13,732 nt of DNA from Octopus sinensis (taxonomy: Eukaryota). Made by a program: the position numbers. The stretch covers positions 1 through 13,732 of the forward strand of contig NW_021826312.1 in assembly GCF_006345805.1 (NCBI RefSeq), read 5' to 3'. This document shows positions 1-4,734 of the stretch, piece by piece (within the stretch, counting starts at the first letter, position 1; the number at the start of each line of letters is the position of its first letter).

Positions 1-3000
1 CTCCTGCGAAACACAAACACCGTGGGCTTCCATGCAGTTTCTATCCAACAAATTCTTTTAGAAGGCATTGATAGTTCTGGGCCCTAAGTAGAAGACATAC
101 CTGGGGTGCTGGGCAGTAGGACTGAACCTGGAACCATGGAGTTGGTAAGCAAGCTACTTACCACACAGCCACTCCTGCGAAACACAAACACACCGTGTGC
201 TTCCATGCAGTTTCTATCCAACAAATTCTTTTAGAAGGCATTGATAGTTCTGGGCCCTAAGTAGAAGACATACCTGGGGTGCTGGGCAGTAGGACTGAAC
301 CCGGAACCATGGGGTTGGTAAGCAAGCTACTTACCACACAGCCACTCCTGCGAAACACAAACACACCGTGGGCTTCCATGCAGTTTCCATCCAACAAATT
401 CTTTTAGAAGGCATTGATAGTTCTGGGCCCTAAGTAGAAGACATACCTGGGGTGCTGGGCAGTAGGACTGAACCTGGAACCATGGGGTTGGTAAGCAAGC
501 TACTTACCACACAGCCACTCCTGCGAAAAACAAACACACGTGGGCTTCCATGCAGTTTCCATCCAACAAATTCTTTTAGAAGGCATTGATAGTCTGGGCC
601 CTAAGTAGAAGACATACTGGGGTGCTGGGAGTAGGACTGAACCTGGAACCATGGAGTTGGTAAGCAAGCTACTTACCACACAGCCACTCCTGCGAAACAC
701 AAACACACCGTGGGCTTCCATGCAGTTTTCCATCCAACAAATTCTTTTAGAAGGCATTGATAGTTCTGGGCCCTAAGTAGAAGACATACCTGGGGTGCTG
801 GGCAGTAGGACTGAACATGGAACCATGGGGTTGGTAAACAAGCTACTTACCACACAGCCACTCCTGCGAAACACAAACACACCGTGGGCTTCCATACAGT
901 TTCCATCCAACAAATTCTTTTAGAAGGCATTGATAGTTCTGGGCCCTAAGTAGAAGACATACTTGGGGTGCTGGGCAGTGGAACTGAACCTGGAACCATG
1001 GGGTTGCAAAGTGAGCTTCCTAACCACTTGATTATATTTCTTTTCCCCATATACTTCATTTCCTTTGTCCTCTTAGCATATTCTCCAAGACTAGTGCCAT
1101 GCATCAAAGCAATTTCGAGTTTTCAAGACTAACTTCAGAACAAATGGCGCCGACACATTTATTATATTCTTTTAAACAAACAAGTGAAGCTACATTCAAA
1201 TTTATGTTTATACATACATACGTACACATACCTATATATATATATATATACATATGTCCATAGACACACACACATATACGCACATATATACATACATACA
1301 CATTCCTATATATATATACATATGTCCATAGACACACACACATATACGTACATATATACATACATACACATTCCTATATATATATACATATGTCCATAGA
1401 CACACACACATATACGTACATATATACATACATACACATTCCTATATATATATATACATATGTCCATAGACACACACACACATATAAGTACATATATACA
1501 TACATACACATTCCTATATATATATACATATGTCCATAGACACACACACATATACGTACATATATACATACGTACACATTCCTATATATATATACATATG
1601 TCCATAGACACACACACATATACGTACATATAATACATACACATTATACATATATATATATATACATATGTCCATAGACACACACATATACGTACATATA
1701 TACATACATACACATTCCTATATATATATACATATGTCCATAGACACACACACATATACGTACATATATACATACATACACATTCCTATATATATAACAT
1801 ATGTCCATAGACACACACACATATACGTACATATATACATACATACACATTCCTATATATATATACATATGTCCATAGACACACACACATATACGTACAT
1901 ATATACATATGTACACATACCTATATATATATATACATATGTCCATAGACACACACACATATACGTACATATATACATACATACACATTCCTATATATAT
2001 ATACATATGTCCATAGACACACACACATATACGTACATATATACATACATACACATTCTTATATATATACATATGTCCATAGACACACACACATATACGT
2101 ACATATATACATACGTACACATTCCTATATATATATACATATGTCCATAGACACACACACATATACGTACATATATACATACGTACACATTCCTATATAT
2201 ATATATACTATGTCCATAGACACACACACATATACGTACATATATACATACATACACATTCCTATATATATATATATGTCCATAGACACACACACATAAC
2301 GTACATATATACATACATACACATTCCTATATATATATACATATGTCCATAGACACACACACATATACGTACATATATACATACATACACATTCTATATT
2401 ATATATACATATGTCCATAGACACACACACATATACGTACATATATACATACACACATTCCTATATATATATACATATGTCCATAGACACACACACATAT
2501 ACGTACATATATACATACATACACATTCCTATATATATATACATATGTCCATAGACAACACACACATATAAGTACATATATACATACATCACATTCCTAT
2601 ATATATATACATATGTCCATAGACACACACACATATACGTACATATATACATACGTACACATTCCTATATATATATACATATGTCCATAGACACACACAC
2701 ATATACGTACATATATACATACATACACATTCCTATATATATACACTATGTCCATAGACACACACACATATACGTACATATATACATACATACACATTCC
2801 TATATATATATACATATGTCCATAGACACACACACATATACGTACATATATACATACATACACATTCCTATATATATATACATATGTCCATAGACACACA
2901 CACATATACGTACATATATACATACATACACATTCCTATATATATATACATATGTCCATAGACACACACACATATACGTACATATTACATACGTACACAT

Positions 3001-4734
3001 TCCTATATATATATACATATGTCCATAGACACACACACATATACGTACATATATACATACATACACATTCCTATATATATATATATACATATGTCCATAG
3101 ACACACACCACATATACGTACATATATACATACATACACATTCCTATATATATATATATGTCCATAGACACACAACATATACGTACATATCACATACGTA
3201 CACATTCCTATATATATATACATATGTCCATAGACCACACACATATACGTACATATATACATACGTACACATTCCTATATATATTACATATGTCCATAGA
3301 CACACACACATATACGTACATATATACATACATACACATTCCTATATATATATACATATGTCCATAGACACACACACATATACGTACATATATACATACA
3401 TACACATTCCTATATATATATACATATGTCCATAGACACACACACATATACGTACATATAACATACATACACATTCCTATATATATATACATATGTCCAT
3501 AGACACACACACATATACGTACATATATACATACATACACATTCCTATATATATATACATATGTCCATAGACACACACACATATACGTACATATTACATA
3601 CATACACAACACATCCTATATATATACATATGTCCATAGACACACACACACATATAAGTACATATATACATACATACACATTCCTATATATATATACATA
3701 TGTCCATAGACACACACACATATACGTACATATATACATACGTACACATTCCTATATATATATACATATGTCCATAGACACACACACATATACGTACATA
3801 TATACATACATACACATTCCTATATATATATACATATGTCCATAGACACACACACATATACGTACATATATACATACATACACATTCCTATATATATATA
3901 CATATGTCCATAGACACACAACACATATACGTACATATATACATACATACACATTCCTATATATATATACATATGTCCATAGACACACACACATATACGT
4001 ACATATATACATACATACACATTCCTATATATATATACATATGTCCATAGACACACACACATATACGTACATATATACATACGTACACATTCCTATATAT
4101 ATATACATATGTCCATAGACACACACACATATACGTACATATATACATACATACACATTCCTATATATATATATACATATGTCCATAGACACACACACAT
4201 ATACGTACATATATACATACATACACATTCCTATATATATATACATATGTCCATAGACACACACACATATACGTACATATATACATACGTACACATTCCT
4301 ATATATATATACATATGTCCATAGACACACACACATATACGTACATATATACATACATACATATTCCTATAGATATATACATATGTACATAGACACACAC
4401 ACATATACGTACATATATACATACGTACACATACCTATATATATATATACATATGTCCATAGACACACACACATATACGTACATATATACATACAGACAC
4501 ATTCCTATATATATATACATATGTCCATAGACACACACACATATACGTACATATATACATACATACACATTCCTATATATATATACATATGTACATAGAC
4601 ACACACACATATACGTACATATATACATACATACACATTCCTATATATATATACATATGTACATAGACACACACATACGTACATACATACACACACATAC
4701 GTACCTAAATACATACACACACATATGTACATAG

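What the first reader, a model, noticed from the sequence alone, without database searches (positions are those of the whole stretch)
1251..4450. 16-monomer (~1085 bp) higher-order repeat hidden in the 68-bp minisatellite
Seen, by numbering monomers from 1251: the TATAAGTA variant is in monomers 4, 20 and 36 (starts 1457, 2542, 3627; spacing 1085 and 1085). The CATACGTACAC variant is in monomers 5/21/37 (1527, 2610, 3697), 10/26/42 (1866 as TGT, 2949, 4038), 13/29/45 (2070, ~3155, 4244) and 14/30 (2138, 3221). All fit positions 4, 5, 10, 13 and 14 modulo 16; the pattern breaks at monomer 46. Known: higher-order organisation is a hallmark of satellites such as primate alpha satellite. Inference: three tiers of amplification (dinucleotide, 68-mer, 16-mer block) in a microsatellite-derived array.
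Basis: seen in the sequence. Interest (0 to 1): 0.7.

Follow-up and report, generated by a model that had tools for sequence, protein, structure and literature searches.

The report
Shallow 16-unit periodicity in 68-bp repeat
A 3.5-kb non-coding tandem array of 68-bp units carries a real but faint repeat-of-repeats: a block of 16 units (about 1085 bp) is present about 2.6 to 2.8 times, which is an ordinary by-product of how tandem arrays grow.

Summary
The array (TRF 1239-4689, 50.7 copies, 95% match) splits into 51 monomers. The TATAAGTA variant is in monomers 4, 20 and 36, whose starts are 1085 and 1085 bp apart. The CATACGTACAC variant is in 5/21/37, 10(TG)/26/42, 13/29/45 and 14/30, and also in 47. 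There are 9 shared-variant pairs at lag 16. No shuffle of 200,000 reaches that at lag 16, and 14 of 200,000 reach it at any lag 1-25.

The signal is shallow. It rests on two substitution sites plus one AC insertion. Whole-block identity at lag 16 (95.6%) is no higher than at other lags (94.0-95.9%). TRF with periods up to 2000 reports no ~1085 period, and long exact repeats are not concentrated at that offset.

One-base indels are never periodic (0 of 19) and look like assembly noise. In substitutions, blocks B and C differ at 2 sites in register against 7-15 out of register.

Best reading: two duplications of a 16-monomer segment by out-of-register recombination or slippage, in a neutral, microsatellite-like array. 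This is a known kind of structure, and interest is low. An assembly artefact could not be tested.

The parts
1206..4750 (.). Whole 68-bp tandem array, about 52 monomers. It includes a truncated first monomer and a degenerate last one.
   Evidence: TRF gives 1239-4689, period 68, 50.7 copies, 95% matches and 2% indels. There are 51 CATAGAC anchors at 66-72 bp spacing. The 18-nt core occurs 50 times at up to 2 mismatches, all between 1254 and 4742, against 0.02 expected.
1206..1258 (.). Truncated leading monomer (m00). It is of the edge type: the G variant, CATACC in place of CATTCC, and a longer TA tract.
   Evidence: Read. The G-variant motif lies at 1217. m10 and m47 carry the same three-feature type.
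1259..1464 (.). Monomers m01-m03, of consensus type. They are compatible with positions 14-16 of a preceding block but carry no diagnostic variant.
   Evidence: m01 has one private substitution, m02 is the consensus, m03 has +TA.
1465..2549 (.). Block A (m04-m19), 1085 bp. The pattern by block position is A G . . . . g . . G G . . . . .
   Evidence: It holds the most private changes: m06 complex, m07 -AC, m10 C>T and T>A and +TA, m12, m15 and m18 with 2-bp losses.
2550..3634 (.). Block B (m20-m35), 1085 bp, with the same variant pattern. It is rich in one-base indels.
   Evidence: B against C in register shows 2 substitutions over 679 bp, against 7-15 out of register.
3635..4319 (.). Block C, partial (m36-m45, 10 monomers). 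It has the same pattern at positions 1, 2, 7 and 10.
4320..4750 (.). Diverged right edge (m46-m51 and a remnant), where the period breaks. m46 lacks G and has 3 private substitutions. m47 is of the edge type. m46, m49 and m50 end in ATGTA (C>A at position 68), as does m51, which is degenerate.
   Evidence: Core matches with 1-2 mismatches lie at 4383, 4589, 4657 and 4725.
4737..4810 (.). Compound microsatellite abutting the array: (AC)14, (TA)n and CATA repeats.
   Evidence: TRF gives 4737-4765, period 2, 14.5 copies, 100%. Run list.

Best explanation
This is a neutral, non-coding tandem array of a 68-bp unit built from alternating-dinucleotide sequence. A segment of 16 adjacent monomers (about 1085 bp) was duplicated twice within it, leaving about 2.6-2.8 tandem copies.

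The likely mechanism is out-of-register exchange between monomers 16 units apart. Candidates are unequal sister-chromatid or homologue crossing-over, and slippage or template switching during replication or break repair. Any two monomers are about 96% alike, so any register can pair, and a 16-unit offset simply copies whatever variants sat in that segment.

After the duplications only a few real changes accumulated. One example is a C>T at the CpG of m10, which turned CATACG into CATATG. Most remaining differences between blocks are one-base indels that look like assembly or sequencing noise.

Shown: the period, its significance, its extent and the non-coding nature of the array. Inferred: the mechanism, the order of events, the noise reading of the one-base indels, and the microsatellite origin.
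For: - Period 16 in the variant labels: 9 shared pairs at lag 16 and 4 at lag 32. No shuffle of 200,000 reaches 9 at lag 16, and 14 of 200,000 reach it at any lag 1-25.
- Unbiased edit-distance test: 2.44 at lag 16, the lowest of lags 1-24. No shuffle of 5000 reaches it at lag 16, and 15 of 5000 at any lag.
- In m04-m45, 14 of 21 substitutions are shared with a monomer at the same position mod 16, against 0 of 19 one-base indels and 2 of 14 longer indels.
- In register, B against C differ by 2 substitutions in 679 bp and A against C by 3 in 681 bp. Out of register the counts are 7-15.
- One-base indels stay at 7-10 whatever the register. They also dominate in unrelated repeats of the window: the 600-bp duplication has 15 one-base indels against 8 substitutions, and one unit of the 173-bp array has four one-base deletions.
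- The array edges (m00, m46-m51) are more diverged than its interior.
- The region is non-coding. Stop-to-stop frames are mostly 67 aa, which is 3 monomers, and the longest is 182 aa.
- Block amplification by unequal crossing-over is the textbook model for such structure (PMC5615363 and PMC8122249, passages read).
Against: - Whole-block identity at lag 16 (95.6%) is not above other lags (94.0-95.9%).
- A against B over the first 10 monomers shows 9 substitutions in register, inside the out-of-register range of 7-13. I think misaligned one-base indels inflate this count, but I did not show that.
- TRF up to period 2000 finds no ~1085 period. The longest exact repeats (135-198 bp) sit at many offsets, and only 2 of the top 30 are at lag 16 and 1 at lag 32.
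- TA-tract, AC-tract and monomer-length variants are not periodic.
- The periodic stretch spans at most 45 monomers (m01-m45), short of the 48 that two clean 16-unit duplications would give.
- The whole signal rests on 5 variant positions per block.
- No reads were available, so the copy number in the organism is unverified.
Confidence: 0.72

Rival explanations
1. Assembly artefact: one 16-monomer stretch of a shorter array was laid down two or three times by a long-read assembler. On this reading the blocks differ only by consensus errors.
For: - Blocks B and C differ by only 2 substitutions in 679 bp.
- The differences are dominated by one-base indels that are never shared: 0 of 19 are periodic.
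- The same noise appears elsewhere in the window, so the assembly is imperfectly polished.
Against: - The blocks also differ by multi-base and complex changes that are not typical consensus errors. These are m06 and m35 (complex), m07 -AC, TA tracts of +0, +4 and +2 at block position 8, and in m10 a C>T with T>A and +TA.
- From general knowledge, not tested here: a 3.5-kb array is shorter than ordinary long reads, so it would normally be spanned, and assemblers more often collapse tandem arrays than expand them.
Confidence: 0.13
2. Chance pattern: the A/G site lies in a CpG (ACGT against ACAT) and could mutate recurrently. The apparent period would then be a coincidence among about 15 variant monomers.
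For: The G variant does sit at a CpG, and m10 shows the other decay product, TG. Recurrent change at this site is therefore plausible.
Against: - No shuffle of 200,000 reaches the observed 9 shared pairs at lag 16, and only 14 of 200,000 do at any lag 1-25.
- The independent C>A plus AC-insertion variant has the same period.
- The edit-distance test gives the same lag.
Confidence: 0.01
3. A true homogenised higher-order-repeat satellite: the 16-mer is the evolving unit of a genome-wide 68-bp satellite family, perhaps in heterochromatin or at centromeres, and this locus is a short outlying piece of it.
For: A multimer period exists. The window is dense in repeats, with a second tandem array at 1-1006.
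Against: - There are only 2.6-2.8 copies.
- The array is 3.5 kb long and bounded by non-repeat sequence on the left (1007-1205) and by microsatellites and SINE copies on the right.
- The 68-mer core occurs nowhere else in the 13.7-kb window.
- Monomers inside the block are hardly diverged, unlike known HOR satellites.
- Genome-wide abundance could not be checked, because no eukaryotic collection was on hand.
Confidence: 0.04

Closest known systems
Higher-order repeats of primate alpha satellite and of other animal and plant satellites
   Same: Head-to-tail monomers in which a block of several adjacent monomers was amplified as one unit. Variants therefore recur at a fixed multiple of the monomer length, here 16 x 68 bp. 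The generally accepted cause, out-of-register recombination, is the same (PMC5615363 and PMC8122249, passages read).
   Different: - Classical units hold monomers that are 70-90% identical, with counterpart monomers more than 95-97% identical, and are reiterated many times. Here neighbours and counterparts are both about 95-96% identical.
- The contrast appears only in substitutions: 2-3 in register against 7-15 out of register, per roughly 680 bp.
- There are fewer than 3 copies.
- The monomer is 68 bp of alternating-dinucleotide sequence, not a unit of about 170 bp.
- There is no evidence of centromeric location.
Minisatellite or VNTR arrays and short euchromatic satellite 'seed' arrays, which change by multi-unit duplication
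   Same: A short array (3.5 kb) of a short unit in a transposon-rich, non-coding region. Its internal variant map records a segmental duplication. Reviews describe such dispersed short arrays as common, often TE-associated, and as seeds of satellites (PMC12692304, passages read).
   Different: The 68-bp unit is just above the 11-60 bp range which that review gives for minisatellites. Copy-number polymorphism, the defining property of a VNTR, could not be tested.
Satellites grown from microsatellites by cycles of duplication and divergence
   Same: The unit is 60 of 68 steps alternating purine/pyrimidine. It contains (TA)6 and (AC)5 runs and CATA repeats, and it abuts a compound (AC)n(TA)n tract. 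The review model says short repeats give rise to longer units by consecutive duplication and divergence (PMC5615363, passage read).
   Different: The origin here is inferred from composition only. No ancestral microsatellite allele or orthologous locus was available.

Membership tests
Higher-order-repeat (HOR) satellite, alpha-satellite type | Head-to-tail tandem monomers of one family | tested here: met
   TRF gives period 68, 50.7 copies, 95% matches. There are 51 anchors at 66-72 bp spacing.
Higher-order-repeat (HOR) satellite, alpha-satellite type | Variants recur at a fixed multiple of the monomer (a multimer period) | tested here: met
   Lag 16: 9 shared-variant pairs, reached by 0 of 200,000 shuffles at that lag and by 14 of 200,000 at any lag 1-25. 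Edit distance at lag 16 is 2.44, reached by 0 of 5000 shuffles.
Higher-order-repeat (HOR) satellite, alpha-satellite type | Counterpart monomers or blocks are clearly more alike than monomers within a block: about 70-90% against more than 95-97% (PMC5615363, PMC8122249) | tested here: not met
   - Edit distance per 68 bp is 2.44 in register against about 3.1 out of register, roughly 96.4% against 95.4%.
- Block identity at lag 16 is 95.6%, within the 94.0-95.9% of other lags.
- A contrast exists only in substitutions: 2-3 against 7-15 per roughly 680 bp for B/C and A/C. It is absent for A/B, which shows 9.
Higher-order-repeat (HOR) satellite, alpha-satellite type | The multimer is itself reiterated many times in tandem | tested here: not met
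   Diagnostic variants span m04-m45, which is 42 monomers or 2.6 units. At most m01-m45 fit, which is 2.8 units.
Higher-order-repeat (HOR) satellite, alpha-satellite type | Centromeric or heterochromatic location and high genomic abundance | not testable with these tools
   No eukaryotic genome collection, reads or chromatin data were available. The scan of bacterial and archaeal genomes for the consensus monomer gave 0 matches, which says nothing about the source genome.
Tandem array with a local multi-monomer (segmental) duplication, i.e. an incipient HOR | Two or more adjacent blocks of n monomers share the same ordered variant map, while the flanking monomers do not | tested here: met
   The map A G.... 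G.. G (G) recurs at m04, m20 and m36. m00 and m46-m51 do not fit.
Minisatellite / VNTR | Short unit in a short, dispersed, non-coding array | tested here: met
   The unit is 68 bp and the array 3.5 kb. No frame stays open beyond 182 aa, and most are 67 aa, which is 3 units. The unit is slightly longer than the 11-60 bp convention quoted in PMC12692304.
Minisatellite / VNTR | Copy number varies between individuals | not testable with these tools
   Only one sequence of the locus is available.
Microsatellite-derived satellite | The unit can be broken down into dinucleotide or tetranucleotide runs and is continuous with a flanking microsatellite | tested here: met
   Of 68 steps, 60 alternate purine/pyrimidine, with a longest run of 40. 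No mononucleotide shuffle of 100,000 reaches 60. (AC)14 at 4737 and TA runs at 4766 and 4778 abut the array. This shows make-up, not descent.

The most novel reading that the evidence does not exclude
The 68-bp unit is a genome-wide satellite whose evolving unit is the 16-mer, and this locus is a small outlier of long homogenised arrays. If so, this invertebrate genome (from recall only, its SINE resembles octopus SINEs) would have a microsatellite-derived satellite with true higher-order organisation, possibly at centromeres.
Probability: 0.04. Interest if true: 0.5.

Novelty: new member of a known kind. Interest (0 to 1): 0.15.

Why it matters
The finding matters little on its own. It is a clean small example of how a tandem array records its own growth, in three layers: a dinucleotide-like unit, a 68-bp array, and a 16-unit segmental duplication. 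One post-duplication CpG change gives a relative timing mark.

Practically, it shows that variant-position analysis can reveal a multimer period that TRF and dot-plots miss when monomers are nearly identical and the assembly carries one-base indel noise.

The locus could also serve as a copy-number marker if it varies in steps of about 1085 bp. It would matter more only if the 68-mer proved to be an abundant satellite in the source genome.

Tried and rejected
- **Eight-monomer sub-period.** G variants fall at m05, 13, 21, 29, 37 and 45, and lag 8 has 5 shared pairs. All five come from one coincidence, block positions 2 and 10 both being G. With 4 G positions among 16, at least one pair 8 apart is expected in 700 of 1820 arrangements, or 0.385. 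Rejected as evidence for an older 8-mer unit.
- **Periodicity of tract and monomer lengths.** TA-tract, AC-tract and monomer-length variation show no signal at lag 16. For TA, 9791 of 20,000 shuffles do as well, for AC 20,000 of 20,000, and for length 17,856 of 20,000.
- **TRF with maximum period 2000** on 1101-4900 gave only the 2-, 4-, 10-, 22-, 26- and 68-bp rows, with no ~1085 row.
- **Exact-repeat dot-plot.** The 30 longest exact repeats (135-198 bp) lie at many offsets. Two are at lag 16 and one at lag 32.
- **Whole-block global alignments.** Lag 16 does not stand out.
- **Lag 37.** Its low mean edit distance (2.15 over 13 pairs) includes the m10/m47 pair of like edge-type monomers. I did not pursue it.
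- **DNA fold of two monomers.** The minimum free energy is -6 kcal/mol, z = 0.37, and 127 of 200 shuffles fold at least as well. There is no special hairpin.
- **Coding potential.** None. I ran no protein-family search because no frame looked like a gene.
- **Related loci.** The scan of genome contigs (bacteria and archaea only) for the consensus monomer gave 0 matches. So the source organism, the genome-wide abundance of the 68-mer and any orthologous loci stayed unchecked.
- **Literature.** One search listed 15 of 445 papers, none on a cephalopod satellite with higher-order structure. One search listed 12 of 1,045, none on this array. One search found 0 papers holding minisatellite, variant repeat, higher-order and periodicity together. 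One search found 0 papers holding a 20-nt piece of the SINE. These searches do not show that such arrays are unreported. I opened no supplementary files, and they may hold repeat libraries that include this unit.
- **Human origin.** I do not take the contig for human.
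Full report
**The object.** TRF reports one array of a 68-bp unit at 1239-4689, with 50.7 copies, 95% matches and 2% indels. The heptamer CATAGAC occurs 51 times between 1259 and 4662 at spacings of 66-72 bp. I used it to cut the array into monomers m01-m51. A truncated monomer (m00, about 1206-1258) leads the array, and a degenerate one with a remnant closes it near 4750. Fourteen monomers are identical to the consensus, and six are identical to each other with the single A>G change. The 18-nt core of the unit occurs 50 times at up to 2 mismatches. 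All matches lie between 1254 and 4742, against 0.02 expected by chance.

**The observation.** The TATAAGTA variant occurs three times in the whole window, at 1481, 2565 and 3651, in m04, m20 and m36. Their starts (1465, 2550, 3635) are 1085 and 1085 bp apart. m04 and m36 also share an extra AC, and m20 has the same insertion minus one base. The CATACGTACAC variant lies in these monomers:
- m05, m21, m37
- m10 (as CATATG), m26, m42
- m13, m29, m45
- m14, m30
- m47 and the truncated m00

m46 lacks the variant. The only omissions are m47 and m00.

**Is it more than chance?** Each of m01-m50 was labelled A, G or consensus. Nine pairs share a non-consensus label at lag 16 and four at lag 32. The other lags from 1 to 35 give 0-5. 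No shuffle of 200,000 reaches nine at lag 16, and 14 of 200,000 reach nine at any lag 1-25. Mean edit distance between monomers is 2.44 at lag 16, against 2.74-3.35 at lags 1-15 and 17-24. No shuffle of 5000 reaches 2.44 at lag 16, and 15 of 5000 do at any lag 1-24. The period is real in this sequence.

**How deep is it?** It is shallow.
- Global alignment of m04-m19 against every other 16-monomer stretch gives 95.6% identity at lag 16, and 94.0-95.9% at lags 1-31.
- TRF run with periods up to 2000 reports no ~1085-bp row.
- Of the 30 longest exact repeats (135-198 bp), only two sit at lag 16 and one at lag 32.
- TA-tract, AC-tract and monomer-length variation carry no lag-16 signal.

The signal appears once the kinds of difference are separated. 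In m04-m45, 14 of 21 substitutions are shared with a monomer at the same position mod 16. For one-base indels the count is 0 of 19, and for longer indels 2 of 14. Over ten monomers in register, blocks B and C differ by 2 substitutions in 679 bp, and A and C by 3 in 681 bp. Out-of-register comparisons give 7-15. A against B gives 9, which is inside the out-of-register range. I suspect misaligned one-base indels inflate this count, but I did not show it.

**Noise.** One-base indels number 7-10 per ten monomers whatever the register. Relative to the consensus, 14 are deletions and 5 are insertions. The same excess appears in unrelated repeats of the window. The two copies of a 600-bp duplication (8100-8700 and 8691-9299) differ by 8 substitutions, 15 one-base indels and 5 longer ones. 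Unit 4 of the 173-bp array holds four one-base deletions. I infer that most one-base indels are consensus errors of a long-read assembly, and that they mask a higher true block identity. This is an inference, because no reads were available.

**Extent and order of events.** The diagnostic variants span m04-m45, which is 2.6 units. The consensus-type m01-m03 could extend this to 2.8 units. m00 and m46-m51 do not fit. The edges carry their own variants:
- The G plus CATACC plus longer-TA type occurs in m00 and m47, and also in m10.
- The ATGTA ending occurs in m46, m49, m50 and m51.

This is as expected if array ends take less part in exchange. Block A has more private multi-base changes than B or C, which suggests that B and C split last.

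The A/G site lies in a CpG (ACGT against ACAT). m10 reads TG where m26 and m42 read CG, the signature of a CpG transition after the duplication. This point is read from the sequence, and the interpretation rests on general knowledge. The apparent 8-monomer sub-period of the G variant is one coincidence repeated in each block, with probability 0.385.

**Make-up and setting.**
- The unit is A29 T20 C16 G3. Of its 68 steps, 60 alternate purine and pyrimidine, with a longest run of 40. No mononucleotide shuffle of 100,000 reaches 60, and the largest is 52.
- (AC)14 and TA runs abut the right end, and the window holds 29 further AC, TA or TG runs of 12 bp or more. A microsatellite origin is plausible but not demonstrated.
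- The array does not code. Stop-to-stop frames are mostly 67 aa, which is three units, and the longest is 182 aa. No gene-like frame lies in the rest of the window.
- Two monomers fold no better than shuffles as single-stranded DNA, with z = 0.37.
- The surroundings are transposon-rich. The individual features are listed under the items noticed in passing.
- The organism could not be identified with the tools at hand. From memory only, the SINE resembles those of octopus genomes. I do not take the contig for human.

**Mechanism.** The best-supported account is two duplications of a 16-monomer segment by out-of-register recombination or slippage within a nearly homogeneous array. Little later change followed. 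My confidence in this is 0.72. Reviews give simultaneous amplification of adjacent monomers by unequal crossing-over as the standard origin of higher-order units. They also give cycles of duplication and divergence as the route from short to longer units (PMC5615363, passages read; PMC8122249, passages read).

The rivals are:
- assembly expansion (0.13), which was untestable here and is weakened by multi-base differences between blocks;
- a piece of a genuinely homogenised satellite (0.04);
- chance (0.01), rejected by the shuffles.

**Comparison and novelty.** The array works like a higher-order repeat but fails two defining features of the alpha-satellite kind. There is no strong contrast between within-unit and between-unit identity, and there is no long reiteration. 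I file it as a short tandem array with a local multi-monomer duplication, an incipient higher-order repeat. Such dispersed, TE-associated short arrays are described as common (PMC12692304, passages read). PMC4675708 (passages read) added nothing specific. It is a new member of a known kind, and interest is 0.15.

**Unchecked.** The following stayed unchecked: reads spanning the locus, genome-wide abundance of the 68-mer, orthologous loci, polymorphism, and supplementary repeat libraries of genome papers.

Noticed in passing
window 1-1006: A 173-bp tandem array (5.8 copies, 96% matches) runs off the left end of the window. Its unit aligns end to end with the tRNA-like SINE core copies elsewhere in the window, so it is a SINE-derived satellite. 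It lies only 200 bp from the 68-bp array.
   Followed up: partly
window 518-686: One unit of the 173-bp array carries four one-base deletions and two substitutions, while the neighbouring unit 3 matches the consensus exactly. This looks like a patch of poor consensus quality, similar to the indel-rich stretch at 3090-3290 of the 68-bp array.
   Followed up: partly
window 8100-8700 and 8691-9299: A tandem duplication of about 600 bp. It contains a SINE copy and an AT-rich segment with a short palindrome (near 8195-8225 and 8785-8815). The copies differ by 8 substitutions, 15 one-base indels and 5 longer indels.
   Followed up: partly
window 7556-7628, minus strand: A tRNA-Lys(CTT) gene (ARAGORN; Rfam tRNA, 38.5 bits) lies within a few bases of a SINE copy (7378-7550) on the same strand. 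It may be a real tRNA gene or part of a composite element.
   Followed up: no
window 7378-7550(-), 7868-8030(-), 8510-8680(+), 9108-9515(+), 10178-10558(+), with 3' parts at 7635-7819(-) and 6496-6570: At least five copies of one tRNA-like SINE family, 82-96% alike. Each carries an internal (TA)n(TG)n microsatellite, so the SINE may itself seed CA/TA-rich tandem repeats in this genome.
   Followed up: partly
window 9652-10030(+) and 12000-12353(-): A second repeat family occurs in inverted orientation about 2.4 kb apart. It begins with a (CAT)n run and holds internal 62-bp tandem repeats (9805-9956, 2.4 copies).
   Followed up: no
window 1906-1918 (m10) against 2988-3000 and 4078-4090: At the variable CpG of the 68-mer, block A reads TG where blocks B and C read CG. 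This is a CpG-transition signature that post-dates the block duplication.
   Followed up: partly
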